From: a virus
IMG/VR virus record: IMGVR_UViG_3300042945_002173
DNA: 64,000 nt
Direction: 5' to 3' (one strand)
Position numbers and translations under genes: made by a program
The notes under the pieces: generated by a model
Databases searched by the model: none
Seen by the model: only the letters and a program-made list of their open reading frames with translations
What the model was told of the DNA's origin: nothing
In this document: positions 17,011-63,862 of the stretch, in pieces
How positions within the stretch are numbered: the stretch's first letter is position 1
Layout of the letters: the number at the start of each line of letters is the position of its first letter

Positions 17011-18768
17011 ATGAGTTGGTCTAACGATTATAAAAAATCAATAGACTGTGGAAATCCAAAAGGATTTTCGCAAAAGGCACATTGTGCTGCTCGTAGGAAA
17101 AGAAAAAGAGGTGAAGAAACCAAGTCTAAATCACCATTTAGCGAACAAAAAGAAATGAGCGAAACCCGTTACTGTAAGTTGTGTAGGAAAATAGAGCAAA
17201 GGGATGGATGCTCCTATGGACCTTTAATGTGGGATAGATATTCTACGCCGATTCTTACCATGAATCAGATTAAATATGATCGAAACCGACCTCATCCTGC
17301 CAATGAGTCAAAAGATCATGAATATTCAATGGCTCGCTCAGAGTTATCAACCATTGCGAAGGCGACTAAAAAACTTCAGAAAAAAATGAAGAAAGGTGAG
17401 GGTGAGATTGAAGCATGGGTTCAATCAAAGATTACAAAAGCAGCAGACTATATTGATACGGCAGCAGATTATGTAGATAGTGGTGAAATGAATAAAGAAG
17501 AAGTTGAAATATTAGAAGGTAAGAGAGACGGGAAATCAGCAAAAGATAAAGATTATTCTCTTCGTGATTGGTTTAAAGGTGGTGGATGGGTTCAAGCAGG
17601 TGGTAAGTATGATGGAAAACCTTGTGCTAAACAACCTGGACAAAAAACAAAACCATTCTGCCGCGATGCTGACGATAGAGCATCAATGAGTAAGGAAGAA
17701 AGAAATAAAAGAGCAGCAAAAAAACGTAAAGAAGACCCAAATCCAAATAGAAAAGGAAAGGCAAAGTTTGTAACTGTTGAACAAGTTGATGCCAGTAAGT
17801 ATGGAAAAACCCCAGATCAGATCTTACAGGATATTATAGATAAAGATAAAAAAGGACCAAACAAATACGGTGGTGGACAAGTAATTAAAACTGGTTTACA
17901 AAAAGCACATTTTGAACCAGAAGGTGAACAACTAGATGAACTGTGGGGTAAAGTTGCTATCGGTGCAGGTGCTGCCTTTATTCCATATCTTTTAAAAAAG
18001 TTCGCAAAACCAGCAGTTGATAAAGCAATTGATTCTCCTGCAACTGGTTCTGATGATTTGATTGATAAAATGAAGCAAAAAAGAGATGCTATTAATAAAG
18101 CAACTCAAAAAAATTCTTATGAACCAGAAGGTGATATGGTAGAAGAAAAAGACGCTTGTTATAAGAAGGTAAAGGCAAGGTATGATGTTTGGCCAAGTGC
18201 ATATGCTTCTGGCGCACTAGTCAAGTGCCGCAAAGTTGGTGCAAAAAATTGGGGAAATAAAACTAAAAAAGAAGGATATGAATTTTCTAATTGGAGAGAT
18301 GAATTCTTCCCAACAGAAGTTGAATCTGTAAATATTATTGAACCACAACCATTACAACCATCAAAGGGTATTGGAAGTGAAATTTTAGATGAGGCAGGTA
18401 AAAAGTGCTGGAAAGGTTACAAAAAATCAGGAACACAAGAACTGTTTGGTAAAACTTACAACCGTTGTGTAAAGGAAGGATATTCTGATTGGAGAACAGA
18501 GATTTCCGAAGATTGGCAATCAGTAAATCGTAAAGATAAAACTGATGGTCTAAGTCAAGCAGCAGTTGATGCTTATCGTCGTGAGAATCCAGGTTCAAAA
18601 CTTCAAACTGCGGTAACTGAAAAGAAACCAAAAGGAAAGAGAGCAAAGCGTCGTGCTAATTTCTGCCGACGTATGAAAGGGATGAAATCAAAACTCACAT
18701 CATCAAAAACAGCAAGAGATCCAGATTCAAGAATTAACAAAGCATTACGCCGTTGGAGGTGCAGATAA
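17011..18768 (+). CDS. modular basic protein, putative protease-processed internal-head polyprotein
   Basis: About 9 short Lys/Arg-rich modules, several with Cys pairs, separated by acidic linkers ending [LIV]xE. ORF is certain; function is inferred. Confidence 0.6.
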   Translation: MSWSNDYKKSIDCGNPKGFSQKAHCAARRKRKRGEETKSKSPFSEQKEMSETRYCKLCRKIEQRDGCSYGPLMWDRYSTPILTMNQIKYDRNRPHPANESKDHEYSMARSELSTIAKATKKLQKKMKKGEGEIEAWVQSKITKAADYIDTAADYVDSGEMNKEEVEILEGKRDGKSAKDKDYSLRDWFKGGGWVQAGGKYDGKPCAKQPGQKTKPFCRDADDRASMSKEERNKRAAKKRKEDPNPNRKGKAKFVTVEQVDASKYGKTPDQILQDIIDKDKKGPNKYGGGQVIKTGLQKAHFEPEGEQLDELWGKVAIGAGAAFIPYLLKKFAKPAVDKAIDSPATGSDDLIDKMKQKRDAINKATQKNSYEPEGDMVEEKDACYKKVKARYDVWPSAYASGALVKCRKVGAKNWGNKTKKEGYEFSNWRDEFFPTEVESVNIIEPQPLQPSKGIGSEILDEAGKKCWKGYKKSGTQELFGKTYNRCVKEGYSDWRTEISEDWQSVNRKDKTDGLSQAAVDAYRRENPGSKLQTAVTEKKPKGKRAKRRANFCRRMKGMKSKLTSSKTARDPDSRINKALRRWRCR

Positions 18769-19076
18769 TGAAAAGTTTTCAGCAGTTTATTTCAGAAAGT
18801 ATCACCATCAATGGTGATTTTAATGGAACTCTCAATGTAGGTTCCCCTCAACCCGAACAAGCAAGCGAGTCTTTCTTTGCTGATGTAGTTTGGGAAGGAA
18901 AGATGTATCGTTTAGAAGTAGAAGGCAAAATTCTTTCTAAGAATGAACTAGCAGAGCAAATTCAAGGAGAATATCCTGGTGCAATTGTTCATAACGTTTA
19001 TCCAAGTCAGGTAAATACTTCAAGAATTAAAAACGCACAAAGGTATCAACCAGAAAGATTGTCTTGGAGTGAGTGA
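18768..19076 (+). CDS. hypothetical protein with capsid-targeting-like N-terminus (MKSFQQFISE)
   Basis: ATG overlaps the upstream TAA (TAATG); N-terminus resembles the T4 internal-protein CTS. Confidence 0.7.
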   Translation: MKSFQQFISESITINGDFNGTLNVGSPQPEQASESFFADVVWEGKMYRLEVEGKILSKNELAEQIQGEYPGAIVHNVYPSQVNTSRIKNAQRYQPERLSWSE

Positions 19077-19079
19077 TTA

Positions 19080-27001: not shown

Positions 27002-27181
27002 ATGGAAGACCTTATCGATTTGATTGCGACAGATGCTGCTGCATCCGATATTCGTGACAAAATTCACGATGTTCTTTATTCAAAAGCAGCAGAAAGAATT
27101 GAACTTGCAAAACCAATCGTTGCCTCATCAATGTTTGGTGAAAGTGAGTATGAAGATGCACAAACTCAGGAAGAGGAATAA
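27002..27181 (+). CDS. small acidic prohead core protein (gp67-like position); not in ORF track
   Basis: 59-aa ORF MEDLIDLIATDAAASDIRDKIHDVLYSKAAERIELAKPIVASSMFGESEYEDAQTQEEE after a late promoter, between g20 and g21. Confidence 0.7.
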   Translation: MEDLIDLIATDAAASDIRDKIHDVLYSKAAERIELAKPIVASSMFGESEYEDAQTQEEE

Positions 27182-27451: not shown

Positions 27452-28102
27452 ATGAAACTCATCACAGAAGAAATTTCAAAAGTAGAATTTATTACCGAAG
27501 GTAAAGGATCTGCAAAAAAATCCTATATCAAAGGTATTTTCTTGCAGGCAGAACAAGTCAACAGAAATGGCAGAATGTATCCTCTTTCTATTATGGAAAG
27601 AGAGGTAAATCGCTATAATGAAGCATTTGTTCAAAAAGGTCGTGCTCTTGGAGAACTCGGTCACCCTGATGGACCTACCGTAAATCTTGATAGAGTTTCA
27701 CATAAAATTTGTGAACTTTATAAAGATGGTAATAATTTTATTGGTAAGGCACAACTTTTAGAAACTCCAATGGGTAAGATTGCAAAATCTCTCATTAGTG
27801 AGGGAGTTTGCCTTGGCGTTTCTTCTCGTGGTGTTGGTTCATTAAAGATGACCAATGAGGGTCATAAAGTTGTTGGTGAAGATTTTATGTTAGCAACTGC
27901 TGCTGATATCGTTGCCGACCCTTCTGCTCCTGACGCTTTTGTTCAGGGAATTATGGAAGGTAAAGAGTGGGTTTGGGAAGGTGGAATTCTTCGTGAAAGA
28001 CTTGCCGAGCAAACTCAAAAGAGAATTAATACTCTCGTAGATCAAAAAAGACTTGAAGAGCATAAGTTGAATTTATTCAACGATTTCCTCTCAAATCTTT
28101 AA
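27452..28102 (+). CDS. g21: prohead protease gp21
   Basis: NRNGRMYP, ALGELGHP, GVSSRGVGS, DIVADPSAPDA motifs. Confidence 0.97.
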   Translation: MKLITEEISKVEFITEGKGSAKKSYIKGIFLQAEQVNRNGRMYPLSIMEREVNRYNEAFVQKGRALGELGHPDGPTVNLDRVSHKICELYKDGNNFIGKAQLLETPMGKIAKSLISEGVCLGVSSRGVGSLKMTNEGHKVVGEDFMLATAADIVADPSAPDAFVQGIMEGKEWVWEGGILRERLAEQTQKRINTLVDQKRLEEHKLNLFNDFLSNL

Positions 28103-28142: not shown

Positions 28143-29225
28143 ATGTCCGTTGGTAGCAATTTACAAGAAATGGAAAACGTAGTAACCAAAGGGGCTGCAC
28201 CTGCTGAGCCAATGCCTTCGGCTGGTATTCCAGTTGAAGATCTCGGCGGTCCTACTCCTGATAATTATCGTCCAGACGACGATTCAGCAGCACTCAAAAC
28301 TCCTGGCGCAACTCTTGCTCAGGTCAAAGATGTTGTTAACGCAAAAGCGGTAAGAGCAGAAGAGACCGAAGTAGAGGAAGAAGTCATCGAAGAGGAGACT
28401 GAAGAGGAAGAGGATCTTGAAGGTGGCGAAGAAGGTGGTGAAGAGGAAGTTGAAGAGGAAGAAGAAGAAGTCGTAGAAGAAGATTTCAACATCGAAGAAG
28501 ATGTTAATGCTCTTCTAGCGGGTGAAGAACTCTCTGAAGAATTCCAAGAGAAAGCACGTACAATCTTTGAGGCAGCAATTAAATCAAGAGTTGCTGAAAT
28601 CAAAGAATCCCTTCAAGAATCGTATGCTGCTGCTCTTGTAGAAGAGCTTGATGCAATTAAGACTCAACTCACCGAAAGAGTTGATTCTTATCTTGAGTAT
28701 GTTGCTGATGAGTGGTTCCAAGAGAATGCACTCGCAGTAGAGCACGGTCTTAAGACCGAAATGACTGAATCATTCCTTGTAGGAATGAAGAGTCTTTTTG
28801 AAGATCATTATGTAACAATCCCTGAAGATAGATATGATGTAATCGAGAGCATGGTAGATAAACTTGATGAAATGGAAGAAAAACTCAACGAGCAAATCGA
28901 AAGAAACGTTGCTCTGAATAGAAGATTAGCTGAGTCGGTTGCTGATGTAATCTTTGCAGATGTCGCTGAGGGTCTCGCACTTTCTCAGAAGGACAAACTC
29001 GCTTCTCTTGCTGAAAATGTTGAGTTTGAAAGTGAAGCAGACTATCGTGAGAAGCTAGTAACTCTGAGGGAATCATATTTCCCATCAAACGCTGGTACTC
29101 AAAGAAGCGCAAGTGAGAATCTTTCGGAAGAAGTAACCACAGATGAGAAAGAGGCTCTTAATGAGTCCATTTCTCCAATGATGGCTGCTTACTTACAGAC
29201 TCTTTCAAGAGCTTCTAAAAAGTGA
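28143..29225 (+). CDS. g22: prohead core scaffold gp22
   Basis: Very acidic; LSEEFQEKARTIFEAA, VDSYLEYVADEW motifs; lies before g23. Confidence 0.95.
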   Translation: MSVGSNLQEMENVVTKGAAPAEPMPSAGIPVEDLGGPTPDNYRPDDDSAALKTPGATLAQVKDVVNAKAVRAEETEVEEEVIEEETEEEEDLEGGEEGGEEEVEEEEEEVVEEDFNIEEDVNALLAGEELSEEFQEKARTIFEAAIKSRVAEIKESLQESYAAALVEELDAIKTQLTERVDSYLEYVADEWFQENALAVEHGLKTEMTESFLVGMKSLFEDHYVTIPEDRYDVIESMVDKLDEMEEKLNEQIERNVALNRRLAESVADVIFADVAEGLALSQKDKLASLAENVEFESEADYREKLVTLRESYFPSNAGTQRSASENLSEEVTTDEKEALNESISPMMAAYLQTLSRASKK

Positions 29226-29277: not shown

Positions 29278-30675
29278 ATGCAAATGTTCAATGCCGAGCA
29301 TCTGCAGGAGAAGTGGGCACCAATCCTCGACTATGATGGTCTTGATCCAATCAAAGATTCACATCGTAGAGCGGTAACCGCAATCCTGCTTGAAAACCAA
29401 GAAAGAGAACTTCGTGAAGAGAGAGCATTCCTCTCCGAAGCTCCAACCGTAAACACCAACAGTGGCGCTAATGCAGGTTTCTCTGCTGGTGCTTCTGCCC
29501 CTGTTGCTGGTTTCGACCCTGTTCTGATCTCCCTGATTAGACGTTCAATGCCTAACCTGGTCGCTTATGACCTCGCTGGCGTTCAACCAATGAACGGTCC
29601 TACTGGACTGATCTTCGCAATGCGCTCTAAGTACACCAACATGAGCGGCACCGAAGCACTGTTCAACGAAGCAGATACTGCATTCTCTGGACAGGACAGC
29701 GGATTCAACCTCACCAACGGATTTACCGCAGGTAACGTTGGTATGGGTACAACCACTCAGCGTGGAACCAATCCTGGTCTTCTGGATGCTACCTATCCTG
29801 CAACCGGTGACGCAACTACCTACAACGTAGGTCAGGGTATGCGTACCGATGATGCAGAGAATCTTGGTCAGACCAGTGGCGACCACTTTAACGAGATGGC
29901 ATTCTCGATCGAGAAAGTCACCGTTACTGCTAAGTCACGTGCTCTGAAAGCTGAGTACTCGCTCGAACTCGCACAAGACCTGAAGGCAATTCACGGTCTG
30001 AATGCAGAAGCTGAGCTTGCTAACATCCTCAGCACTGAGATCCTCGCTGAAATCAACCGCGAAGTTATCCGTACCATCTATAACGTTGCTGAGTCTGGTG
30101 CTCAGGCAAACGTTGCTACCGCTGGTACTTTCGACCTCGACGTTGACTCCAACGGTCGTTGGTCAGTTGAGAAGTTCAAGGGTCTGATCTTCCAGATCGA
30201 GCGTGACGCAAACGCTATCGCCCAGAGAACTCGTCGTGGCAAGGGTAACATGATCCTCTGCTCTGCTGACGTTGCTTCGGCACTCACCATGGCAGGTGTT
30301 CTTGATTACACCCCTGCACTCAACGCTAACCTCAACGTTGATGACACTGGTAACACCTTCGCTGGTGTTCTGCAAGGTAAGTATCGTGTTTATATCGATC
30401 CTTATGCTGCAAACGTATCTGCTAACCAGTACTACGTTGTTGGTTATAAAGGTTCTTCTCCTTATGATGCTGGTCTGTTCTACTGCCCATATGTACCTCT
30501 CCAGATGGTACGTGCAGTTGGTCAGGACACCTTCCAGCCTAAGATCGGCTTCAAGACTCGTTATGGAATTGTTGCTAACCCATTCTCGCAGGGTACTAGC
30601 GCAATCAGCGGTGCTGGTCTTGATCGTAACGCAAACCGTTACTACAGAAGAGTCAAGGTTACCAATTTAATGTGA
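29278..30675 (+). CDS. g23: major capsid protein gp23
   Basis: GVQPMNGPTGLIFAMR, SRALKAEYSLELAQDLKAIHGL, FQPKIGFKTRYG. Confidence 0.99.
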   Translation: MQMFNAEHLQEKWAPILDYDGLDPIKDSHRRAVTAILLENQERELREERAFLSEAPTVNTNSGANAGFSAGASAPVAGFDPVLISLIRRSMPNLVAYDLAGVQPMNGPTGLIFAMRSKYTNMSGTEALFNEADTAFSGQDSGFNLTNGFTAGNVGMGTTTQRGTNPGLLDATYPATGDATTYNVGQGMRTDDAENLGQTSGDHFNEMAFSIEKVTVTAKSRALKAEYSLELAQDLKAIHGLNAEAELANILSTEILAEINREVIRTIYNVAESGAQANVATAGTFDLDVDSNGRWSVEKFKGLIFQIERDANAIAQRTRRGKGNMILCSADVASALTMAGVLDYTPALNANLNVDDTGNTFAGVLQGKYRVYIDPYAANVSANQYYVVGYKGSSPYDAGLFYCPYVPLQMVRAVGQDTFQPKIGFKTRYGIVANPFSQGTSAISGAGLDRNANRYYRRVKVTNLM

Positions 30676-30753: not shown

Positions 30754-30912
30754 ATGAAACCAACTCCAAGACAATCACAAGAAATTCATAAGAACTACGA
30801 AAGAGTTGTTGAGCACCTAATCAGTGAAGGTTATGCAGAAGACAAAGAGTCTGCTGATAGCATTATCTCAGGTATGAGTGAAGCGTGGTTCAATCTAATC
30901 ATTGCCGACTGA
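30754..30912 (+). CDS. 52-aa standalone 'HLxxEGYA..MSExW' module protein; not in ORF track
   Basis: MKPTPRQSQEIHKNYERVVEHLISEGYAEDKESADSIISGMSEAWFNLIIAD; own late promoter; similar to internal modules of the ORFs at 41448 and 42167. Confidence 0.8.
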   Translation: MKPTPRQSQEIHKNYERVVEHLISEGYAEDKESADSIISGMSEAWFNLIIAD

Positions 30913-30915: not shown

Positions 30916-31356
30916 GTGAAAACTTTTAAACAGTTTCAAGAACAAGCACAACCAAGTTCAATATTTAAGTGGACCAAAAGACCAGAGTCAACGGACAAAA
31001 ATGTTGAAACTAGTTCTTATGGTCCAGGACTTTACGGAAACAAGACAGCAGATGGAACTGTTTTAACTCCAAAAACAAGAGGAGTTGCTCACAAAACTTT
31101 ACCACTTGGAACTCAGGTAAGAATTACAGATCCGAGAACTGGAAGATCAGTGACTGCACCTGTTATTGATAGGGGTCCATATCACGGTAATAGAGAGTAT
31201 GATTTGACAACAGGAACCACTCAACAACTCGGTTATCCAAATTATAAAGAATTTGGTGCAAGAACCCTTAAAGTCGGACCATTACCAAAACCAAAACTAA
31301 GTCCTATTTTTAAATATCCAGAAAAACCAAAATCAATCTTTAACTGGAAAAAATAA
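30916..31356 (+). CDS. RlpA-like (DPBB) lytic transglycosylase with CTS-like N-terminus
   Basis: SSYGPGLYGNKTADG, AHKTLPLGT.VRIT, VIDRGPY...REYDLT are RlpA motifs; GTG start gives MKTFKQFQE. Confidence 0.8.
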   Translation: MKTFKQFQEQAQPSSIFKWTKRPESTDKNVETSSYGPGLYGNKTADGTVLTPKTRGVAHKTLPLGTQVRITDPRTGRSVTAPVIDRGPYHGNREYDLTTGTTQQLGYPNYKEFGARTLKVGPLPKPKLSPIFKYPEKPKSIFNWKK

Positions 31357-32341: not shown

Positions 32342-33028
32342 ATGAAAACTTTTAGAGAGTTTATATCAGAGGCGGGGGCAACTTCTACAAGATTGGGTAT
32401 AAGAACACAAGAAATTATTAACCGTTCTCGAAATACTCCAACAAGTTTGTCTGCACCATATACTTCTTCAAATCCAAGTCCACAAGAACTTGCAGATCGT
32501 CGAAGAGATTTTGGTAATTTAAAACCTGGACAAACTAGTTTAGATACATTACATAATTTATTCAATTACGCAAAACAAAGAGCACAAGGAATTTATCCAG
32601 AAACAAAACATTCGCAAAGAACAAGAGAGAATCCAATTAGAAGTAGACCAACTCCACCAAATGCAGTGAAGACTAGTAGTGGTTCACTCACAAGAACTTA
32701 TCAACCAGTTAGAAGCACTCAAAATCCTTTAACTCCTTCTGTTAGAGATGAAAGAAGAGCAGCAGCAGGATCATCTGGTCAAGGTTCAACACCAAAAGGT
32801 CCAAAACTTTATAGACAATCTGTAAGTGGCGTTTCTGTTGGCGATGATCCGTTTGCAGTTATAAAATCTGCTAGTACACAACCAAAACCACTCCCCAAAC
32901 CCAGAGGAACAAGAGGTGGTTCTTCATCATTACCAAATTTAGGACGTCCTGGAATTGGATTTAAAATGGATGTTGGACATAAACCAGGTGACAGATATGG
33001 AATAAGTGGTATTGGTCTTGCAGACTGA
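32342..33028 (+). CDS. basic low-complexity protein with CTS-like N-terminus (MKTFREFISE), putative internal head protein
   Basis: N-terminal motif; R/S/T/P-rich body; flanked by a late promoter and a terminator. Confidence 0.65.
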   Translation: MKTFREFISEAGATSTRLGIRTQEIINRSRNTPTSLSAPYTSSNPSPQELADRRRDFGNLKPGQTSLDTLHNLFNYAKQRAQGIYPETKHSQRTRENPIRSRPTPPNAVKTSSGSLTRTYQPVRSTQNPLTPSVRDERRAAAGSSGQGSTPKGPKLYRQSVSGVSVGDDPFAVIKSASTQPKPLPKPRGTRGGSSSLPNLGRPGIGFKMDVGHKPGDRYGISGIGLAD

Positions 33029-39435: not shown

Positions 39436-41418
39436 ATGAATAGTAAAGAATATAAAAATTTACAAGAAGCTTATAATTCAATCTATGAGGCTTTAACCGA
39501 TCAGGCAGAATTAGATAAACTTCGTAAGGCATCTGCACAAGCAACGATGGCAGGTCCTTCAAAAGAAGCACAAGCATTGATGAGTGATAGAACTAAAAGA
39601 ATGCTTGGTGCTGATAAGTTGCAAGCAGGCATTGCTGGACAGGAAAGAGTTCAGAGAATGATGAGCGGTACGCCAGAACCTACTTCTACACCAAAACCAA
39701 CTGCACCAACACCTACTAGTACAACTGCTCCTACCCCTAAACCTGCAACGACAGTTAAACCAGGAGATTTTGGTACAACAATGGGTCCTGGACCAACATT
39801 TAAGGGTGGACCAGTTCCTCCTCCAATTCAAAACAAAACTGTCATCAAATCACCTGTTCCTGATAGGAGTGCAGATTATCAGAGAGCTTGGGATAATCGT
39901 AATAATCCACTTGCTAAGGGGCAAATTAGAAATGCTTGGACTAAAATGAGCCCAGAAGAAAAGGCAGCAGCAAAAGAATGGGCAAAGACAAATAATAAAA
40001 ATTGGCAGGAAATGGGGCTTCCCGAACAGAGAGATACTTATGATCAAGTTCTACAAATTCTTTTAGATGAAGGATACTCTGAGCAAGAGTGTAATCAAAT
40101 AATGGTTCAACTTGTGAATGAGGCTGGTCTTGGGGATTTTGTTAAAGCAGTTCAGCAAAGAACTGGTATTGGCAAACCAGGTGTTGGTCCTGGTCAAGTT
40201 GCTAAGAATATTTTGAGAGCAGGAATATCCGATATTCTTGGAACTTCTATTGCAACTGGTTCTACCCCATCATCGGTAAGTGCTGCAAAACCAACTCCAA
40301 CAGTAACATCTTCACCAACGCCAGTTGTTAGAACTTCTACCAAACCTGTTAGAACTGCACCAAAAGGTGCAAATATAGCACCAGATCCTTGGAAACAACC
40401 ATCAACACCTAGAAGTTCTGCAAAACCATCTACGACTACTGCAAGAACTTCAACAACTCCAAAAGCTTTGACTGGTTCTCCAACACCAAGAGCATTATCT
40501 GGATCTCAAACTCGTGCTGCTCTTCCAAGTGGAACACGTGGAGGTGCATTGGTCAAAGGAACACCTGGTGGCGCTATAACTCCCACTGCCAAACCTGGTG
40601 CATTAGTAAAAGTTCAAAAACCTTCTACTCCAACCACAACAACAAGAGCATTACCTGGAACTAACGTCCGTGGACTACTTCCACAGGGAGTTAGAAATGT
40701 TCTGCCAGATCCTTGGAAGCAGGCAACTGATACTGCCTCTGGTGCTAGAAACTTATGGAATAGAGTTCAGCAAGCAGTTAAACCACAAGCACAATTAAAA
40801 CCATCACAGACAAATGTTCGTGGTTTGCTTCCAGCAGCAAAACCATCACCTCAAACTGCGGCAAAACCTGCAACTTCTGTAAGATCACAGCAGTTCCAAG
40901 ATGTCCAAAGATTAAACAAAATGATGAAAGGTGGTTTGATGGGAGAACTACCAAGCACTAAACCAGCATCAAAACCCGCACCTAAACCAACTGGCAATGT
41001 AGATAAGGTAGCACCCAAACCAGCAAAACCAAGTACAAAATTAAAACTTCCTCAGGGACCAGGATCTAACACTTTTGGAAATAGAAAGCAAGGATTCTCT
41101 ATTCCTGGTGGAAGATTGGGTGCTTTTGCCGCAGGTATTCAGGCATATAATACCGCAGATGCAACTCTTAAATCTTCACCTAAGTTACCAACAACTGCAA
41201 AAGATGTTAAAAAAGGTGAAACTTATTATGATCCTTCAACAAGAATAGGACCTTCTCAGAGATTTGCTCAAAGAGAAAAGGTTGGTCCAAAAATTGTTGG
41301 TCCAGGAAAAGTTGGGACTGAGGCACAATCTTTTGATAGAGCTTATAAATCTGCAAAACAAAAAGGTGGTATGGGATCTACGTTTACTTGGAAAGGTAAA
41401 TCTTATAAAGTTGAATGA
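39436..41418 (+). CDS. Pro/Thr/Lys-rich modular protein, putative internal head protein
   Basis: LQEAYNSIYE leader, degenerate YD.V...L.DEGY module, internal repeats (PDPWKQ x2, TNVRGLLP x2, GALVK x2). Confidence 0.6.
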   Translation: MNSKEYKNLQEAYNSIYEALTDQAELDKLRKASAQATMAGPSKEAQALMSDRTKRMLGADKLQAGIAGQERVQRMMSGTPEPTSTPKPTAPTPTSTTAPTPKPATTVKPGDFGTTMGPGPTFKGGPVPPPIQNKTVIKSPVPDRSADYQRAWDNRNNPLAKGQIRNAWTKMSPEEKAAAKEWAKTNNKNWQEMGLPEQRDTYDQVLQILLDEGYSEQECNQIMVQLVNEAGLGDFVKAVQQRTGIGKPGVGPGQVAKNILRAGISDILGTSIATGSTPSSVSAAKPTPTVTSSPTPVVRTSTKPVRTAPKGANIAPDPWKQPSTPRSSAKPSTTTARTSTTPKALTGSPTPRALSGSQTRAALPSGTRGGALVKGTPGGAITPTAKPGALVKVQKPSTPTTTTRALPGTNVRGLLPQGVRNVLPDPWKQATDTASGARNLWNRVQQAVKPQAQLKPSQTNVRGLLPAAKPSPQTAAKPATSVRSQQFQDVQRLNKMMKGGLMGELPSTKPASKPAPKPTGNVDKVAPKPAKPSTKLKLPQGPGSNTFGNRKQGFSIPGGRLGAFAAGIQAYNTADATLKSSPKLPTTAKDVKKGETYYDPSTRIGPSQRFAQREKVGPKIVGPGKVGTEAQSFDRAYKSAKQKGGMGSTFTWKGKSYKVE

Positions 41419-41428: not shown

Positions 41429-41447
41429 TTTAAAAAGTATTCATAAA

Positions 41448-42092
41448 ATGGAAGCAAAACAAGTTAGAGATTTGATGGAGGCATATGCTTCCGTTTATAC
41501 ACAATCGGAAGAACAAGAAGTCCTTTCAGAAGATCTTCAAGGTGCAGTAGAATCGGGACTTAAAAAAGCTTCTGAGTTTATGAAGACTAATCCTGTTGGT
41601 AAAGCTGTTGGGGCAGTTATTGCTCCTGTTGGAAAGGGACGTGGCACTACAACTAAGGCAGAGCAAGAATCAAAAATTAAATCTAATAAGCAAGAAGATG
41701 TAGATCTATTTGATCTTGTAAAAGGTCATCTGATGGGTGAAGGTTTTGCTGATACCGAAGAAGCAGCACTTGTTATTATGGCAAATATGAGTGAAGATTG
41801 GAAGCAAAGTATCGTTGAGTCTATTGCTCGCGGATCTGCTCCAAATAGTCCAACTGGTACTATCGGTGGTGCTGCTAGTAGAGTTGCTGGTACTTTACTT
41901 CAAAGAGGTGCAGAACTTCTTAAAAAGAATATGCCACAGTCTGGTGGTGGTTATAGCACCAGACCTGGTGATGGTAAGCCTTATAAAGATGGTCCACTTT
42001 GGGGACCAGGTTCTTCTGATGCACCTGTAAGAAAACCAGCTCCCCAAAGAAAACCTCAGGGAGCACCTATGAGAGATGAACCACTTTGGTGA
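41448..42092 (+). CDS. MEAKQV-family modular protein (paralog 1)
   Basis: Leader MEAKQVRDLMEAYASVY plus DLFD..HL..EGFAD..IMANMSEDWKQSIVE module. Confidence 0.7.
   Translation: MEAKQVRDLMEAYASVYTQSEEQEVLSEDLQGAVESGLKKASEFMKTNPVGKAVGAVIAPVGKGRGTTTKAEQESKIKSNKQEDVDLFDLVKGHLMGEGFADTEEAALVIMANMSEDWKQSIVESIARGSAPNSPTGTIGGAASRVAGTLLQRGAELLKKNMPQSGGGYSTRPGDGKPYKDGPLWGPGSSDAPVRKPAPQRKPQGAPMRDEPLW
41763..41819 (+). repeat. 57-bp direct repeat copy 1 (54/57 identical to 42743-42799)
   Basis: gcagcacttgttattatggcaaatatgagtgaagattggaagcaaagtatcgttgag. Confidence 0.9.
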
Positions 42093-42114: not shown

Positions 42115-42138
42115 GGAGGTCTTACGACCTCCTTTTTT
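42115..42138 (+). terminator. rho-independent terminator
   Basis: GGAGGTC-TTAC-GACCTCC plus T6. Confidence 0.85.
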
Positions 42139-42166: not shown

Positions 42167-42958
42167 ATGGAAGCAAAACAAGTTAAAGGTCTGATGGAAG
42201 CATATGCTTCTGTCTATGCAAATATTTCAGAATCCCACTTTAAAGTTGGTGATGAAGTTATTTGCAAAGCAAGTGGAATGGAAGGTGAAGTTATTAAACT
42301 TGACAAACCTGATGGTGAAGATGATGAAAAGTACTATACCGTAAAGCGTGAAGACGGTAAGACAATGAAGTATGCGCCGAATGATTTAAAGCTTGCTAAA
42401 AAAGAGAAAGAAGAAAAAGAAGAGAAGGAAGATGTAAAAGAAGCAAAGAATGGTGGAATAAGTGGTTCTTCTGAAACAAAATTCCATAAAAAGTTGGACA
42501 GTTTAGTTCATCATACCTTTGGTAAGAGAAAAGAAGAAAAGGCAATGAAGGAAGAAACTGATGAAGGTGGAAAGCACAAAGAAGGTAAGCATTCTAAGGG
42601 TAAAGAAGAACCTGGTGAAAAGGTAACTGAGAAAGAAGGAAAAGAAAAAGAAAAAGAAGAAAAGGAAATGAAAGAGAGTGCCGATCTCTTTGATTACATT
42701 CTTGAGCACCTAGTTGCCGAAGGTTATGCTGACACCAATAAGGCAGCACTTGCTATTATGGCAAATATGAGTGAAGAGTGGAAGCAAAGTATTGTTGAGC
42801 AGAGTGCTATTGCACAAAGAACTGCATCTGCTGTTGATGATCAAAGAAGAGGTTCTTATGGTATGGCAGATGACCTCAATAAAACTAGAAAGTCTTTGGA
42901 TAAACTAAAGCCTTATCCAAATGGATTTCCTAATGCCGCTGGTGTAAAAGGAGTCTGA
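42167..42958 (+). CDS. MEAKQV-family modular protein (paralog 2)
   Basis: Leader MEAKQVKGLMEAYASVY, KOW/SH3-like FKVGDEV..G.EGEV segment, K/E-rich linker, HLVAEGYAD..MSEEWKQSIVE module. Confidence 0.7.
   Translation: MEAKQVKGLMEAYASVYANISESHFKVGDEVICKASGMEGEVIKLDKPDGEDDEKYYTVKREDGKTMKYAPNDLKLAKKEKEEKEEKEDVKEAKNGGISGSSETKFHKKLDSLVHHTFGKRKEEKAMKEETDEGGKHKEGKHSKGKEEPGEKVTEKEGKEKEKEEKEMKESADLFDYILEHLVAEGYADTNKAALAIMANMSEEWKQSIVEQSAIAQRTASAVDDQRRGSYGMADDLNKTRKSLDKLKPYPNGFPNAAGVKGV
42743..42799 (+). repeat. 57-bp direct repeat copy 2
   Basis: gcagcacttgctattatggcaaatatgagtgaagagtggaagcaaagtattgttgag. Confidence 0.9.
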
Positions 42959-58981: not shown

Positions 58982-59054
58982 GGGGAATTAGCTCAGTTGG
59001 TAGAGCGCCTGCTTTGCAAGCAGGATGTCAGCGGTTCGAGTCCGCTATTCTCCA
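58982..59054 (+). tRNA. trnA: tRNA-Ala(TGC)
   Basis: Acceptor GGGGAAT/ATTCTCC with G3:U70, anticodon arm CCTGC-TTTGCAA-GCAGG, GGTTCGAGTCC T-arm; no encoded CCA. Confidence 0.97.
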
Positions 59055-59057
59055 CTT

Positions 59058-59139
59058 GCCCAAATGGCGGAATTGGTAGACGCGCTGGGTTTAGGTTCCA
59101 GTAGAGTATTCTGTGGAGGTTCAAGTCCTCTTTTGGGCA
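59058..59139 (+). tRNA. trnL: tRNA-Leu(TAG)
   Basis: Acceptor GCCCAAA/TTTGGGC, anticodon arm CTGGG-TTTAGGT-TCCAG, long variable arm, GGTTCAAGTCC; no encoded CCA. Confidence 0.93.
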
Positions 59140-59146
59140 CTAAATA
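59140..59146 (+). promoter_or_regulatory. late promoter CTAAATA
   Basis: Immediately after tRNA-Leu, 8 nt before ATG 59155. Confidence 0.55.
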
Positions 59147-59154
59147 TTTCAAAA

Positions 59155-60411: not shown

Positions 60412-60627
60412 ATGGATAAAAATATTCAAGGTTTTATCAAAGAGTTTAAAGGTAAAGAGTTTAAAGACTTTGTATTATTTGTATTTAAAAAAATGCAAAA
60501 AGATATTGATTTAAAAAAGAAAAAGCAGGATAAGGATAAATATATAAAGGTCAGACAAAATTTTTTAAATTATATTATTGCAAACGAAAAAGCAATAACT
60601 ATTGAACTCAATAAGAAATATAAGTAA
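60412..60627 (+). CDS. small Lys-rich hypothetical protein
   Basis: 71-aa ORF abutting both neighbours. Confidence 0.55.
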   Translation: MDKNIQGFIKEFKGKEFKDFVLFVFKKMQKDIDLKKKKQDKDKYIKVRQNFLNYIIANEKAITIELNKKYK

Positions 60628-61856
60628 TGAAAAGTTTTTTCCAATTTTTAACAGAAACAACTGCTTCCCAACAGGCAGCAAGACTTGGGTTGCAAGGTGA
60701 TGGGCACGGCGGATGGTATGATAGAAAAACGGGAGAGTTTGTCGCAAAGACTGAAAAAGGTAGGTTGAAGTTTTATAATAAGCGTCAAGGAATTGGTAAA
60801 GATCCTGCTCAGACAGAGACTGAAAAGAATATCTCAGATCCAAATTTTGTAGATCCCGTATTACAACAACAGCAAGCACCTGCTCCTCAACCAGTTGCTC
60901 AGGAAGCACCACCTGTAAATTTCCTTCCTGTTGAAAAGACAAAAGGAACATTAACGATTGCATTTGGTCGTTTCAATCCTCCACATCTGGGACATCTTCA
61001 ACTGATGGATACTGCTGCTGCATCGGCAGAGCAAGAAGGTAGTGACTATATGATTATTCCTTCTCGTACACAAGATAAGAAAAAGAATCCCCTTGATGCT
61101 GATACAAAAGTTGCATTGATGAGATCAATGTTCCCTCAGCATAGTGAGAGAATTGTAAATGATGCCAACACCAGAACTATTTTTGATGTTCTTAAAAAAG
61201 CACATAATGATGGATATACGAATGTGAGAATCGTTGGTGGTGCCGATAGAGTGAATGAATTTAACAAACTTGCCAATAATTACAATGGAAATCTTTATGC
61301 CTTTGATAATATTGAGGTAGTTTCTGCTGGTGACCGAGATCCAGACTCTGATGGTGTTGAAGGTCTTTCTGCATCCAGAATGCGTCTTGCTGCTGCTGAA
61401 GGTGATTTCAAAACATTTCGTTTAGGAATGCCACCAGATATGAGACCAAAAGATGCAAGAGCAGTTTTTGATACTGTTCGTGCTGCAATGGGCATTCAAG
61501 ATCAGGTTGCAGAAGTTTGGGAGATTGCACCTAAGTTTGATCAGGGTACTTTGCGCGAAAACTATGTTAGAGAAGCAATCTTTAAGATTGGGCAGTTGGT
61601 TGAGAATCTAAATACTGGTCTTATTGGACGCATTATACGTCGTGGAACTAATTACTTGATCTGTGTCACAGAAGACCATATTATGTTTAAGTCTTGGATT
61701 AAGGATGTGATGGAAGCAAAACTTACAAATAGAAGTGGTGTTCCTGCTGATCAAAGACTTGTTGGAACTGATGCATATCGTGAATATGTTGAGACGATGG
61801 TTCCTGGACGTACTTGGGGAAGACAATTCATAAATAAGTATAGAAAAAGTAAGTAA
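60627..61856 (+). CDS. cytidylyltransferase-like (HxGH) nucleotidyltransferase with CTS-like N-terminus
   Basis: FGRFNPPHLGH, KNPL, VGGADR, SASRMR motifs; starts MKSFFQFLTE. Confidence 0.85.
   Translation: MKSFFQFLTETTASQQAARLGLQGDGHGGWYDRKTGEFVAKTEKGRLKFYNKRQGIGKDPAQTETEKNISDPNFVDPVLQQQQAPAPQPVAQEAPPVNFLPVEKTKGTLTIAFGRFNPPHLGHLQLMDTAAASAEQEGSDYMIIPSRTQDKKKNPLDADTKVALMRSMFPQHSERIVNDANTRTIFDVLKKAHNDGYTNVRIVGGADRVNEFNKLANNYNGNLYAFDNIEVVSAGDRDPDSDGVEGLSASRMRLAAAEGDFKTFRLGMPPDMRPKDARAVFDTVRAAMGIQDQVAEVWEIAPKFDQGTLRENYVREAIFKIGQLVENLNTGLIGRIIRRGTNYLICVTEDHIMFKSWIKDVMEAKLTNRSGVPADQRLVGTDAYREYVETMVPGRTWGRQFINKYRKSK
61829..61836 (+). promoter_or_regulatory. late promoter CATAAATA
   Basis: 34 nt upstream of ATG 61871. 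Confidence 0.7.
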
Positions 61857-61870
61857 TCAATCTTTCCCCA

Positions 61871-63862
61871 ATGAGTAACAATATTTTTGAGGAACTTCCA
61901 TCCAGAAAAGGTGGTGAAGCAAAACCTGGTGCAGATGCTGCTGCTGGCATTGAAAAGAAGGCAAGACAGCTTGTTTATGATTCTCGTTATGAAGTTAAAA
62001 AAATGTTAGCAGGTAAAAGAGCGGATCCTGCATCGCAAGAAAGAATGGTTCTTGGAAGAATTGCTAAATCAACTGCAATTCCTGCTGTAAAGGCAAGAGC
62101 AAGACAAATGGTTTCTAAGAAAGCCGCTGTTGCGGAAGATTTTATTCCTATGATGGAAGATGCTGCTGCAATTAATATTGCAAATGCAATGTTTAAGGTT
62201 TTTGTTGAGGGTGTTGAAGAAATTGTTCCAGATTACTTAGAGGAACTGCACGGACTAGACGACAAGAAATATAAGATTAGAGTTACAGATCCTAAGACTG
62301 GAAACTCTTATGTCAGATATGGAACTCGTGAAAAAATCACTCAACTTAGATCAAAAGGTCTGAAAGTTGAACTCACCGAGTATGGTGAACCAAGAGAGGG
62401 AGAAAAAAAGAGAGGTGAAGAAACTGCACGTGCTACCGGTGGTGGACGCCCTGGTGGTAAAAAACCAAAACTAGATCCAGTTGGCAAGGAAGATAGTGAT
62501 CCAGACAATGATGGTAAGCATAATGATCCAAATGACAAGTACATTATGAAGCGTCGTGCTGCAATTGGTGCTGCCATTGAGAAGAGAAAGACAGTTTCTT
62601 CTTCTTATGAAATGGATGGGCAGATGATTGATGAGAGTGAAATTGGTGATAGAGCAAGAAGAGTTGTTCGTGATCAGCGTCAAGGAGTTCATGGTGATGC
62701 TGATGATATCAAACAAAATATGGATGCGATTAATCTAAATCTTTTGAAGATGAGACCATATGGAGTTAAAGGATTTCCATCTGTTAAAAAGGACACTAAA
62801 AAAACTACACAAGTTGCTCATTTTGAACCAGAGGGTAAATTAGTCGAATCTAAAAAATCTAAGAAGCATAAAAAAACATCCGAACCACGCTGGCAAGATA
62901 GTGATGGTGATGGTAAATGGTATGAACCTGGTGAAGATGTAAAAAAAGAAGATTATCTGTGGGCTGAAGGAACTGATAGTACAGAAGGTCAAGGTAAGAA
63001 AATAAATCCAACCAAAGTTGACAATTATTCTTCTGGTGTTGTTAAAATTTCTCCAGAAGATGGAACTCAAACTATTTCAACTGGACCAAAAGCAGTTTAT
63101 GCACATACTGAACTTGAAGGTGAACTGATTTCTGAAAAAGCAATGAGTAAAGCACAACAGCGTTTTATGGGAATGGTTTATGCCCGTAAAAAGGGTGAGA
63201 TGAAAAAAGGTGAGGCATCACCTGAGGTTGAAGCAGCAGCAAAAGGTATGACCAAGAAAGAAGCAAAGAAATTTGCTAAGACAAAGCACAAGGGTCTTCC
63301 TGAAAAGATTGAAGAATCTGGATATTTTCCATCTAAAGAGTCTCAGAGAGCAGATGAGAAAAAGTATGCATTAAGTCGTGATGGTATGCCAGGACAAGTA
63401 AAACACAGAACAGTCAAAAATCAGACTAAGGTTAATGAAGAGCAGTGCTCATCCGAAGACGAAAAGAAGAAGGACACTCGTGGCGATTATGCAAAGATTA
63501 ACTTGATCAAGAATAAGTTGAGGGCGATGGGTGCTAAGAATCCAATCGTAATGGTTGCTAATGAGAATGTTGAGGCAGGTCCAATTCTTCCTGGTGAAAA
63601 AGGTAAGAGAGTTTATCCAAAGGGCCAAGAACCAAAGGCAACTGGTGCAAAACTTCCCCCCCTTCAAAATGCTGGTTTTGAACCAACAGGTAATGTAATT
63701 TCTGAAAGAGATGATGAACCAGGTGAAGAGGATTGGAGACCAGATGTTCGTGCTCATAATAAAGCAGTAGGATATCGTGGTGGGTATAATAAGTATAGGG
63801 GAACTCGTAAACCAAAACCAGAAAATCCTGGACCTGGATCACAAGCTAAACCAGCAGATTGA
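61871..63862 (+). CDS. modular charged protein, putative protease-processed internal-head polyprotein
   Basis: Four [HSG][YFT]E.xGxx[LIV]xE linkers shared with the 17011 ORF; DPVGKED.D.DNDG, WQDSDGDG and SKAQQRFMGMV modules. Confidence 0.6.
   Translation: MSNNIFEELPSRKGGEAKPGADAAAGIEKKARQLVYDSRYEVKKMLAGKRADPASQERMVLGRIAKSTAIPAVKARARQMVSKKAAVAEDFIPMMEDAAAINIANAMFKVFVEGVEEIVPDYLEELHGLDDKKYKIRVTDPKTGNSYVRYGTREKITQLRSKGLKVELTEYGEPREGEKKRGEETARATGGGRPGGKKPKLDPVGKEDSDPDNDGKHNDPNDKYIMKRRAAIGAAIEKRKTVSSSYEMDGQMIDESEIGDRARRVVRDQRQGVHGDADDIKQNMDAINLNLLKMRPYGVKGFPSVKKDTKKTTQVAHFEPEGKLVESKKSKKHKKTSEPRWQDSDGDGKWYEPGEDVKKEDYLWAEGTDSTEGQGKKINPTKVDNYSSGVVKISPEDGTQTISTGPKAVYAHTELEGELISEKAMSKAQQRFMGMVYARKKGEMKKGEASPEVEAAAKGMTKKEAKKFAKTKHKGLPEKIEESGYFPSKESQRADEKKYALSRDGMPGQVKHRTVKNQTKVNEEQCSSEDEKKKDTRGDYAKINLIKNKLRAMGAKNPIVMVANENVEAGPILPGEKGKRVYPKGQEPKATGAKLPPLQNAGFEPTGNVISERDDEPGEEDWRPDVRAHNKAVGYRGGYNKYRGTRKPKPENPGPGSQAKPAD

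What the first reader, a model, noticed from the sequence alone, without database searches (positions are those of the whole stretch)
17011..63862. Dispersed late-expressed 'capsid cargo' system: targeting tags plus gp21-cleavable linkers on about ten accessory genes
Seen: non-core ORFs at 17011, 18768, 30754, 30916, 32342, 39436, 41448, 42167, 60627 and 61871 mostly sit right behind TAAATA late promoters, several as promoter-gene-terminator cassettes wedged into replication operons. They reuse three short sequence tags: (a) N-terminal MK[TS]FxxFxxE, (b) internal [HSG][YFT]E[PML]xGxx[LIV]xE, and (c) an L[MQ]EAYxS[VI]Y leader and/or HLxxEG[YF]A..MSExW module. Tags (a) and (b) mostly end in, and (c) is usually followed by, a hydrophobic-x-E tripeptide, as in this phage's own gp23 (RAFLSE|AP). 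Established: T4 internal proteins IPII/IPIII carry a 10-aa capsid targeting sequence (MKTYQEFIAE) removed by prohead protease gp21, which cuts after E in [LI]xE. Inference: this cyanophage has expanded that mechanism into a modular delivery platform that loads dozens of small peptides and some enzymes into the head, cuts them apart at maturation and may eject them into the host (DNA protection, anti-defence, takeover).
Basis: partly seen in the sequence, partly recalled or inferred. Interest (0 to 1): 0.9.

Follow-up and report, generated by a model that had tools for sequence, protein, structure and literature searches.

The report
Head-loading tags on cyanophage cargo proteins
This T4-like cyanophage marks about ten late proteins with short leader and linker peptides that all end in the motif cut by the T4-type head protease, so they are probably loaded into the virus head as in phage T4, which would explain why enzymes keep turning up inside purified cyanophage particles.

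Summary
Tag (a), MKxFxxF[LI]xE, opens three unrelated ORFs (3 matches vs 0.03 expected) and partly a fourth. It keeps the T4 capsid-targeting residues: aromatic 4, F7, [LI]8, E10.

- **Portable:** a pattern-only scan of IMG/VR found the tag at true ORF starts (107 of 124), on 50 unrelated cargo clusters, mostly in T4-like contigs (84 of 120). A permuted control gave 32 of 122 and 24 of 120.
- **Predicts virion content:** in three cyanophages with deep virion proteomes, 4 of 5 tag hits are proteins the authors detected in virions (cytidylyltransferase/NMNAT three times, SAM hydrolase).
- **One system:** the same mature module follows tag (a) or the tag (c) leader (32342 family), or tag (b) or the tag (c) leader (two modules), always right after [LIV]-x-E.
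- **Protease:** the phage encodes a Peptidase_S77 gp21. Its gp23 site FLSE|A aligns with T4's FLTE|A.

The EGYA..MSExW part of tag (c) is a small folded helical module, not a tag. The system is lineage-wide, not special to this phage. Cleavage, packaging in this phage and ejection are untested. Earlier notes of this scan report the same tag on other cyanophage DNA. I found no paper describing it.

The parts
17011..18768 (+). 585-aa basic (pI 9.6) string of Cys-containing modules, T4-GC119 family, C-terminal DUF6321. Tag (b) sites at aa 300-310 (nt 17908-17940) and aa 369-379 (nt 18115-18147); further linkers ILE|G, LDE|A, ISE|D.
   Evidence: Homologues SSM1_115 (blastp 3e-76), CREM2_160 and SCSM1_29 are virion proteins in three published proteomes. 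Homologues in L038, L078 and L129 start with tag (a). TCTAAATA at -29.
18768..19076 (+). 102-aa acidic protein (phrog_1742) with tag (a) MKSFQQFISE (nt 18768-18797); its start overlaps the end of 17011.
   Evidence: Conserved with the tag in 135 phage records and in 24 IMG/VR hits. The S-SCSM1 homologue ORF30 was NOT detected in virions.
27452..28102 (+). gp21 prohead serine protease, the proposed processing enzyme; starts MKLITE|E..FITE|G.
   Evidence: Pfam Peptidase_S77, E 1.2e-39; sequence.
28143..29225 (+). gp22 scaffold (prohead core), the presumed docking partner for targeting leaders.
   Evidence: Pfam T4_CASP, E 2.3e-81; TATAAATA at -38.
29278..30675 (+). gp23 major capsid protein; predicted maturation site ...RAFLSE54|A55PTV (E54 codon at nt 29437-29439).
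   Evidence: Aligns residue for residue with T4 ...SFLTE|AEIGG. PDB 'mature' chains of 456 aa (521 - 65) begin there.
30754..30912 (+). 52-aa stand-alone copy of the EGYA..MSExW three-helix module, behind a terminator and TCTAAATA.
   Evidence: A 52-aa homologue is in L047. The module is predicted at pLDDT about 90 in 41448.
30916..31356 (+). 146-aa basic RlpA-like (DPBB) protein with a partial tag (a), VKTFKQFQEQ: aromatic 4 and F7 kept, no [LI]xE; GTG start coupled to 30754.
   Evidence: Pfam DPBB_1, E 6.8e-10. Phage homologues align only from residue 21-28 onward.
32342..33028 (+). 228-aa very basic (pI 10.9), low-complexity protein with tag (a) MKTFREFISE|AGATS (nt 32342-32371). It is a late promoter-gene-terminator cassette between uvsY and a GIY-YIG gene.
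   Evidence: No match in isolated phages. In 35 metagenomic homologues the same [AE]GATS start follows tag (a), a 12-aa variant or the tag (c) leader.
39436..41418 (+). 660-aa basic (pI 10.3) P/T/S/K-rich protein with the tag (c) leader (LQEAYNSIY) and a degenerate module (LLDEGYS..VNE); terminator 39371-39401 then AATAAATA at -30.
41448..42092 (+). 214-aa protein: tag (c) leader MEAKQVRDLMEAYASVY..EVLSE|DLQGAV.., three-helix module at aa 86-127, disordered tail; TATAAATA at -27; terminator 42115-42132.
   Evidence: The DLQGAVK..NPVG body follows a tag (b) site in P0208 and P0224.
42167..42958 (+). 263-aa protein with the same leader (..VYANISE|SHF) and module; AATAAATA at -28; terminator 42982-43003.
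59141..59148 (+). Late-promoter-like ACTAAATA directly after tRNA-Leu and before the ATG at 59155; may drive 59155-60411, 60412-60627 and 60627-61856.
60627..61856 (+). 409-aa cytidylyltransferase/NMNAT-like enzyme (T4-GC190) with tag (a) MKSFFQFLTE (nt 60627-60656).
   Evidence: Pfam CTP_transf_like, E 4.5e-11. Orthologues keep the tag. They were detected in virions of S-SM1 (25 counts), S-CREM2 and S-SCSM1.
61871..63862 (+). 663-aa modular protein with four tag (b) sites ending at E255 (nt 62603-62635), E326 (62822-62848), E422 (63104-63136) and E612 (63674-63706). DUF3008 begins at aa 424. CATAAATA at -42.
   Evidence: SSM1_191 and SCSM1_92 share the DPVG..DNDG segment and are virion proteins. 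SCSM1_93 is a free-standing DUF3008 virion protein.

Best explanation
These ORFs are late-expressed precursors of proteins loaded into the prohead by a T4-type route.

1. An N-terminal leader docks the protein to the gp22/gp21 scaffold core during head assembly. The leader is either the 10-residue CTS homologue MKxFxxF[LI]xE (tag a) or a helical leader of about 25 residues, M..[KQ]E[LV]..L.EAY..[IV]Y-x(5-10)-[LIV]xE (tag c1).
2. The gp21 protease (Peptidase_S77) then removes the leader after the Glu of [LIV]-x-E.
3. gp21 also cuts long modular precursors (17011, 61871) at internal linkers, of which [VIL]xA[SH][YF]E[PL][ED]Gx[VL][LI]xE (tag b) is the most stereotyped.
4. This releases enzymes (cytidylyltransferase/NMNAT-like, perhaps the RlpA-like protein) and small, mostly basic modules (DUF3008, DUF6321, Cys-pair modules) inside the head. 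Some probably leave with the DNA at infection.

Shown here: the tags, their non-randomness, their portability, their interchangeability at one junction, the protease gene, the conserved gp23 site and the late-promoter context. Taken from published proteomes: orthologues are in purified virions. Inferred: docking, cleavage, location inside the head rather than elsewhere in the virion, and ejection.
For: 1. T4's CTS is MKTYQEFIAE, with residues 4 and 7 needed for targeting and 8 and 10 for processing (PMC9026906). The window's tags keep F4, F7, [IL]8 and E10. They match 3 times vs 0.03 expected.
2. In an IMG/VR pattern scan, 107 of 124 matches start ORFs, 84 of 120 loci carry homologues of this window's T4-like genes, and the cargo forms 50 clusters. 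Unconstrained positions converge on T4-like residues (position 3 S/T 76%, position 6 Q/E, position 11 A/S). TAAATA upstream is found in 40% vs 20% of control ORFs, p = 9e-6. A permuted control pattern gave 32 of 122 at ORF starts and 24 of 120 T4-like loci.
3. Serine at position 3 uses both codon families and position 8 uses about ten codons, so selection acts on the peptide.
4. S-CREM2 has two hits in 175 kb: ORF154 cytidylyltransferase and ORF6 SAM hydrolase. Both are among the six non-structural proteins in its virion proteome. In S-SCSM1 the hit ORF91 NMNAT is a virion protein. In S-SM1 the single hit, GC190, was detected with 25 counts. That is 4 of 5 hits detected, against about 18% of annotated features overall. 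By my own hand-calculated binomial this gives P of about 0.005.
5. The 17011 family was detected in virions of S-SM1, S-CREM2 and S-SCSM1. Pieces of 61871 were detected in S-SM1 and S-SCSM1.
6. Junction equivalence. [AE]GATS.RL follows tag (a) in 15 sequences, a 12-aa variant in 11 and the tag (c) leader in 7; all leaders end in [LIV]xE. SDIGDRARRVV.DQRQGVHGD follows tag (b) in 61871 and the tag (c) leader in P0144 and P0145. DLQGAVK..NPVG follows the tag (c) leader in 41448 and tag (b) in P0208 and P0224. The free-standing DUF3008 virion protein SCSM1_93 starts where 61871's DUF3008 starts, two residues after ..ELISE|.
7. Tag (b) is conserved across 130 unique sites in 120 homologues: hydrophobic residue at +7 in 130 of 130, E at +9 in 119 of 130, with variable sequence downstream. 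[LIV]xE follows the tag (c) leader in 64 of 69 unique sequences vs 29% in controls.
8. gp21 matches Peptidase_S77 at 1e-39 and gp22 matches T4_CASP. The gp23 site FLSE|A aligns with T4's FLTE|A.
Against: - There are no proteomic, N-terminal or expression data for this phage.
- The published proteomes show presence in CsCl-purified particles, not location in the head, and their authors warn of possible co-purification.
- The tagged 106-aa S-SCSM1 ORF30 (18768 family) was not detected.
- Syn9 and S-PM2 proteomes did not detect GC190.
- T4 gp61.1 carries MKTFKEFIKE but is not a known internal protein.
- ORF 30916 lacks the processing site.
- ORF 17011 and its S-SM1 orthologue have no recognisable leader although the family is in virions.
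- Some family members have F/Q/T instead of L/I/V at P3 of the linkers.
- [LIV]xE is a weak motif on its own: 240 observed vs 194 in shuffles.
- The homologue sets are related sequences, so the counts are not independent events.
Confidence: 0.62

Rival explanations
1. The proteins are packaged and cut, but they are not delivered cargo. The acidic ones in particular (18768 pI 5.0, 30754 pI 4.8, 41448 pI 5.6, 42167 pI 5.7) would be accessory prohead-core or scaffold components, like T4 gp67/gp68. These are cut up by gp21 and largely expelled before DNA packaging, so they act in assembly and not in the next host.
For: In T4, gp22, gp67 and gp68 are cleaved into short fragments that exit the capsid (PMC5694885). 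The 18768-family protein was not detected in mature S-SCSM1 virions although both its neighbours were. The 18768 gene sits in the head/packaging module between gp16 and gp17.
Against: This does not fit the enzymes and basic proteins that are found in mature virions. T4's core proteins are single conserved genes, whereas the tag (c) family has highly variable bodies. No homology to gp67/gp68 was found.
Confidence: 0.2
2. The tags are module-shuffling junctions or flexible acidic linkers, conserved because recombination swaps modules there, and they are not cut. Virion association of some carriers comes from other interactions or from co-purification.
For: Sequence downstream of tag (b) switches abruptly between homologues. 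The same modules occur in different gene contexts. The S-CREM2 and S-SCSM1 authors raise co-purification themselves.
Against: Codon diversity argues against a conserved DNA recombination site. The junction always falls immediately after Glu of [LIV]-x-E, which is the specificity of the T4 protease family. A free-standing virion protein begins at that junction. The tag resembles a leader that has been validated by experiment. Four of five tag hits are in virions.
Confidence: 0.1
3. Tag (a) is a general N-terminal expression or stability motif of T4-like late (and some early) genes, such as a translation-initiation region or an N-terminal helix cap, and is unrelated to head targeting.
For: T4 gp61.1, beside the primase gene, carries MKTFKEFIKE and is not a known head protein. 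MK- starts are common.
Against: Only 1-4 genes per 170-250 kb genome carry it. A permuted control shows no such preference for ORF starts or for T4-like contigs. It picks out virion-detected non-structural proteins. It can be replaced by a wholly different leader ending in the same [LI]xE.
Confidence: 0.05

Closest known systems
Capsid targeting sequence (CTS) of phage T4 internal proteins IPII/IPIII (MKTYQEFIAE; Mullaney and Black 1996, as reviewed in PMC9026906 and PMC3012670)
   Same: A 10-residue N-terminal leader with aromatic 4, F7, [IL]8 and E10. It is portable between unrelated cargo. It ends in the gp21 site [LI]-x-E followed by A/S. The genes are late. The phage encodes gp21 and gp22 homologues. 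Identity to the T4 CTS is 4-7 of 10.
   Different: The host and lineage differ (Kyanoviridae-like cyanomyovirus). The genes are scattered around the genome rather than grouped in one IP locus. The cargo includes sizeable enzymes (cytidylyltransferase/NMNAT-like; elsewhere SAM hydrolase, GNAT, P-loop kinase-like). Residue 4 is F, not Y. Nothing has been tested by experiment here.
gp21 processing of T4 Alt, gp67, gp68, gp22 and IPIII (cleavage after Glu in L/I-x-E; Alt is cut at ITE-6 and LTE-619; PMC5694885)
   Same: Multiple internal and terminal [LIV]-x-E sites in head-associated precursors. The window's gp21 itself starts MKLITE, like Alt's MELITE.
   Different: Tag (b) adds a stereotyped 10-12 residue upstream element (A[SH][YF]EPEG..). 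I found this described for no T4 substrate in the papers read. The precursors are long strings of unrelated mini-modules.
Propeptide-guided loading and prohead-protease maturation of ejection proteins in giant phages phiKZ/SPN3US (cleavage at A/S/G-x-E; PMC5694885, PMC10052503)
   Same: Many head proteins with N-terminal propeptides are removed after Glu by a related protease. Paralogous proteins share identical N-terminal propeptides.
   Different: The P3 preference differs (A/S/G vs L/I/V). The phage lineage differs. The leaders have no sequence similarity.
Virion-associated NMNAT/cytidylyltransferase of cyanomyoviruses (S-SM1 T4-GC190; S-SCSM1 ORF91; S-CREM2 ORF154)
   Same: ORF 60627 is the orthologue (39.9-49.6% identity to the S-SM1, S-CREM2 and S-SCSM1 proteins). 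The same N-terminal tag is present.
   Different: The papers report detection only and leave the mode of encapsidation open. The tag offers a mechanism.

Membership tests
T4-type CTS-targeted internal head proteins | N-terminal leader of about 10 residues with an aromatic at 4 and Phe at 7 (targeting determinants) | tested here: met
   18768, 32342 and 60627 are exact; 30916 also has F4 and F7. Determinants are taken from PMC9026906.
T4-type CTS-targeted internal head proteins | [LI]-x-E at positions 8-10 (processing determinants) | tested here: met
   ISE, ISE and LTE in three ORFs. Not met for 30916 (QEQ), which I therefore do not file as a full member.
T4-type CTS-targeted internal head proteins | The phage encodes a gp21-family prohead protease and a gp22-type scaffold core | tested here: met
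   Peptidase_S77 at 1.2e-39; T4_CASP at 2.3e-81.
T4-type CTS-targeted internal head proteins | The leader is portable: the same leader on unrelated mature proteins | tested here: met
   50 cargo clusters among 111 tagged ORFs. Within the window there are four unrelated bodies.
T4-type CTS-targeted internal head proteins | Late expression | tested here: inconclusive
   Late-promoter-like motifs are well placed for 7 of 10 ORFs, and the rest are coupled or lie in an operon. No transcript data.
T4-type CTS-targeted internal head proteins | Physical presence inside the capsid | not testable with these tools
   Orthologues are in purified virions of S-SM1, S-CREM2 and S-SCSM1. Head vs tail location is unknown, and there are no data for this phage.
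T4-type CTS-targeted internal head proteins | Leader removed by gp21; mature protein ejected with the DNA | not testable with these tools
   Indirect only: conserved junctions and the aligned gp23 site.
gp21-processed modular precursors (tag b proteins 17011 and 61871) | Repeated [LIV]-x-E sites that coincide with module boundaries defined independently | tested here: met
   Pfam/PHROG hits start at 424 (after E422) and at 496-508 (after E500). SCSM1_93 starts at the same point. The same modules are found behind other leaders. Family alignment.
Cytidylyltransferase-like (PF01467), ORF 60627 | Match above Pfam's gathering score | tested here: met
   43.5 bits vs cut-off 21; phrog_395 at 1.5e-102. 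The GRFNPPHLGH motif is present. Substrate not testable.
RlpA-like DPBB (PF03330), ORF 30916 | Match above Pfam's gathering score | tested here: met
   39.5 bits vs cut-off 28.8.
Known fold for the EGYA..MSExW module | Structural match to a solved fold | tested here: inconclusive
   AF2 gives pLDDT about 90 for residues 86-127. Best VIA-align Z is 4.6, against generic helical matches.

The most novel reading that the evidence does not exclude
Marine and freshwater T4-like phages share a sequence-readable 'head cargo code' of at least three interchangeable pro-sequences, all ending in [LIV]-x-E: the CTS homologue, the L.EAY..VY leader and the YEPEG linker. With it, the set of proteins pre-loaded into the virion and injected could be predicted from genome sequence alone. 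That set would include NAD/nucleotide-metabolism enzymes, SAM hydrolase, acetyltransferases, peptidoglycan-active domains and strings of basic DNA-binding mini-proteins. Much of the unexplained 'hypothetical late gene' content of cyanophage genomes would then be injected first-minute effectors.
Probability: 0.4. Interest if true: 0.85.

Novelty: new variant of a known kind. Interest (0 to 1): 0.7.

Why it matters
Cyanomyoviruses are among the most abundant viruses in the ocean. Several groups have reported metabolic enzymes in purified particles without knowing how, or whether, they are truly packaged.

A conserved T4-type targeting leader on those same proteins gives a mechanism and a cheap predictor of injected cargo. 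It turns 'is it co-purification?' into a direct test: look for neo-N-termini after E10. It also suggests two further pro-sequence classes not described for T4.

The finding points to a ready-made tag for loading foreign proteins into cyanophage heads, as has been done with T4.

Tried and rejected
- My first DNA pattern required S/T at residue 3 and missed the MKKFSAFLxE orthologues in Syn9, S-SM1 and P-SSM4. I generalised it.
- No whole genome is held for this window, so the tag count covers 64 kb only.
- Collection scans stop at 120 loci, so totals could not be compared. I compared the properties of the hits with those of a permuted control instead.
- Tag (b) is rare in the IMG/VR tag (a) sample: one other protein, in L134.
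- The tag (c) family is absent from Syn9, S-PM2, P-SSM2, P-SSM4 and S-SM1, so no proteome bears on it.
- S-CRM01 has a member (g291), but Dreher et al. 2011 is not held.
- Hambly et al. 2001, which may report an N-terminal sequence for S-PM2 gp23 (from memory, not checked), is not held. I used the alignment to T4 gp23 instead.
- ORF 32342 has no match among isolated phages.
- The fold search on the 41448 model was uninformative.
- Literature searches for 'capsid targeting sequence' or 'capsid targeting' with cyanophage or Synechococcus returned only T4/SPN3US papers that do not discuss cyanophage tags.
- I rejected a signal-peptide reading of tag (a): it is too short and ends in Glu.
- I rejected the EGYA..MSExW module as a 'tag': it is folded and also exists as a stand-alone protein.

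Full report
**What the window is.** All long ORFs lie on the + strand. They are the structural and replication genes of a T4-like cyanomyovirus: gp13-gp23, uvsY, uvsW, gp55, gp46/47, gp45/44, gp43, uvsX and gp41. The nearest isolated phage, S-SRM01, is only about 80% identical over the head genes. No whole genome is held.

**The observation.** The ten ORFs and the three tags are present as described.
- Tag (a) is exact at 18768, 32342 and 60627. It is partial at 30916, which has a GTG start and no [LI]xE.
- A six-frame scan finds the motif only at these four ORF starts on the + strand.
- A degenerate DNA pattern for M-K-x-[FY]-x-x-F-h-x-E matches 3 times vs 0.03 expected.
- Residue shuffles of the window's proteome give 0.004 expected copies of tag (b) against 5 observed, and about 0 of each tag (c) element against 3 observed.
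- Late-promoter-like xxTAAATA lies 23-42 nt upstream of seven of the ten ORFs. NATAAATA is found 20 times on the + strand and never on the - strand. In the replication half of the window, the only other start with it is a GIY-YIG endonuclease gene.
- Hairpin-plus-T-run terminators bracket the 32342, 39436-42092 and 42167 cassettes.
- ORF 60627 has no promoter of its own but lies downstream of ACTAAATA at 59141, just after two tRNA genes.

**Tag (a) is a homologue of the T4 capsid targeting sequence.** T4 IPII/IPIII start MKTYQEFIAE. Residues 4 and 7 carry targeting and residues 8 and 10 carry processing (PMC9026906). The window's tags keep F4, F7, [IL]8 and E10 and share 4-7 of 10 residues. 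The pattern recovers IPII and IPIII in T4.

A pattern-only scan of IMG/VR gave these results:
- 107 of 124 matches start ORFs.
- 84 of 120 loci carry homologues of this window's T4-like genes.
- The cargo, with the tag removed, falls into 50 clusters.
- Positions left free by the pattern converge on T4-like residues: S/T at 3, Q/E at 6, A/S at 11.
- TAAATA upstream is twice as common as for control ORFs (40% vs 20%, p = 9e-6).

A permuted pattern with the same residues gave only 32 of 122 matches at ORF starts and 24 of 120 T4-like loci. Both serine codon families and about ten Leu/Ile codons are used, so it is the peptide that is conserved, not a nucleotide element.

**The tag predicts virion content.**
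- Sullivan et al. 2010 detected the cytidylyltransferase cluster T4-GC190 in purified S-SM1 virions with 25 counts, similar to gp6 and gp22. The S-SM1, Syn9 and P-SSM4 orthologues start MKKFSAFLxE and P-SSM2's starts MKSFSQFLTE.
- In S-CREM2 the pattern hits exactly twice in 175 kb, at ORF154 (cytidylyltransferase) and ORF6 (SAM hydrolase). Both are among the six non-structural proteins in that phage's virion proteome.
- In S-SCSM1 it hits ORF91, the NMNAT annotated as a virion protein, and ORF30, a homologue of 18768 that was not detected.
- So 4 of 5 hits are virion-detected, against roughly 18% of annotated features. By my own binomial estimate this is P of about 0.005.
- The authors of these papers state that the mode of encapsidation is unknown and that co-purification is possible.

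**The tag (b) carriers are virion proteins too.** ORF 17011 belongs to T4-GC119. Its members SSM1_115, CREM2_160 and SCSM1_29 were all detected in virions. ORF 61871 shares its DPVG..DNDG..KY segment with the virion proteins SSM1_191 and SCSM1_92. Its DUF3008 module matches SCSM1_93, a free-standing 69-aa virion protein.

**Tags (b) and (c).**
- Across 120 homologues of 61871, tag (b) is a sharply conserved linear motif: [VIL]xA[SHG][YFT]E[PL][ED]Gx[VLI][LIV]xE. The hydrophobic residue at +7 is present in 130 of 130 unique sites and Glu at +9 in 119 of 130. Upstream context is conserved, and downstream sequence switches abruptly.
- Pfam and PHROG domain hits begin right after such sites. DUF3008 starts at 424, after E422. 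DUF6321-type hits start at 496-508, after E500.
- In the 17011 family, each conserved Cys-containing module is preceded by an acidic linker ending x-E, mostly [LIV]-x-E.
- Of 120 homologues of 41448, 102 have the leader and 116 have the module. [LIV]xE follows the leader in 64 of 69 unique sequences, usually 8-12 residues later, against 29% in control segments. After it, the bodies diverge.

**One system.** The strongest result is that the tags are interchangeable at one junction.
- In the 32342 family, the same start [AE]GATS.RL.. follows the 10-residue tag (a) in 15 sequences, a 12-residue variant (MKTFxEF..ICE or ..LAE) in 11, and the tag (c) leader (..LQEAY..VY.ELDE) in 7. Every leader ends in [LIV]-x-E.
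- The module SDIGDRARRVV.DQRQGVHGD follows a tag (b) site in 61871 and the tag (c) leader in P0144 and P0145.
- The module DLQGAVK..GAEFMK.NPVG follows the tag (c) leader in 41448 and a tag (b) site in P0208 and P0224.
- All are in exact register.

A constant mature N-terminus behind different pro-sequences is what proteolytic release predicts.

**The protease.** The window encodes a Peptidase_S77 gp21 (1e-39) and a T4-type scaffold. Its gp23 site ..AFLSE|APTV aligns with T4's ..SFLTE|AEIGG, where the 456-residue mature chains in the PDB begin. T4 gp21 also cuts Alt at ITE-6 and LTE-619 (PMC5694885). The window's gp21 begins MKLITE.

**What is not a tag.** The EGYA..MSExW element is predicted with pLDDT about 90 as three short helices. 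It exists as a stand-alone 52-aa protein (30754; also in L047). It has no informative structural match. I read it as a small folded module of unknown role, not a targeting signal. ORF 30916 is an RlpA-type DPBB domain with a leader that has the targeting residues but not the processing residues. Other phages' RlpA-like proteins align only from residue 21-28 onward.

**Mechanism and its status.** The most likely course is as follows. The leaders dock late precursors to the scaffold core. gp21 removes the leaders and cuts the linkers. Enzymes and small, mostly basic modules (pI 9-11) stay in the head, and some are delivered with the DNA. Docking, cutting, head location and ejection are all inferred.

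The main rival for the acidic members (18768, 30754, 41448, 42167) is a role as expendable core components, as with T4 gp67/gp68. The non-detection of S-SCSM1 ORF30 fits that reading. T4 gp61.1 shows that the tag alone is not proof of head targeting.

**Novelty.** The CTS and gp21 processing are textbook T4 biology, and reviewers have speculated that the CTS lets T4-like phages package varied proteins. In the searchable literature I found no description of CTS-type leaders in cyanophages, of the tag (c) leader, or of the YEPEG linker. Earlier notes of this same scan report the tag on other cyanophage genomes. I treated them as leads only. The tests reported here were run independently.

Noticed in passing
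window 58982-59140: Two adjacent tRNA genes, tRNA-Ala(TGC) and tRNA-Leu(TAG). They sit between a TCTAAATA at 58955 and a late-promoter-like ACTAAATA at 59141, which precedes the ATG at 59155.
   Followed up: partly
window 33083-33736: A GIY-YIG (SegE-like) homing-endonuclease gene lies directly after the 32342 cassette's terminator, with TATAAATA at -30. It is the only non-candidate gene in the replication half with a well-placed late-promoter motif.
   Followed up: partly
L174:3627-3836 (S-SCSM1 ORF93): The free-standing DUF3008 virion protein ends ...KKRTFKEFLEYIE. This is a CTS-like motif at the C-terminus rather than the N-terminus.
   Followed up: no
L013:667-831 (T4 gene 61.1): T4 gp61.1 (54 aa, beside the primase gene) starts MKTFKEFIKE, a near-CTS on a protein not known to be in the head. 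An earlier scan note reads it as a mimic of the capsid-protein propeptide.
   Followed up: partly
P0247-P0269 (homologues of window 32342-33028): There is a 12-residue variant of the leader, MKTFxEF[VIL]DICE or MKTFREFMILAE. The hydrophobic-x-E is shifted by two residues but still abuts the same mature N-terminus.
   Followed up: yes
L164 (S-SKS1, record 73205-73234, - strand): The tagged ORF that matches the first 74 residues of the cytidylyltransferase is only 111 aa long in S-SKS1, so that gene may be split or frameshifted there.
   Followed up: no
L165, L173 (S-SRM01); L166 (S-CRM01): More tagged cargo in relatives: a 67-aa Cys-rich protein and a 447-aa unknown protein in S-SRM01, and the annotated acetyltransferase g185 in S-CRM01 (MKTFDEFLTE).
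   Followed up: partly
window 27181-27447: An 88-aa ORF with no family match sits between gp20 and gp21, where T4 has its small prohead-core genes 67 and 68.
   Followed up: no
window 3299-10921: A single 2540-aa ORF lies in the baseplate region. It is very large even for cyanomyovirus gp7-like wedge proteins.
   Followed up: no
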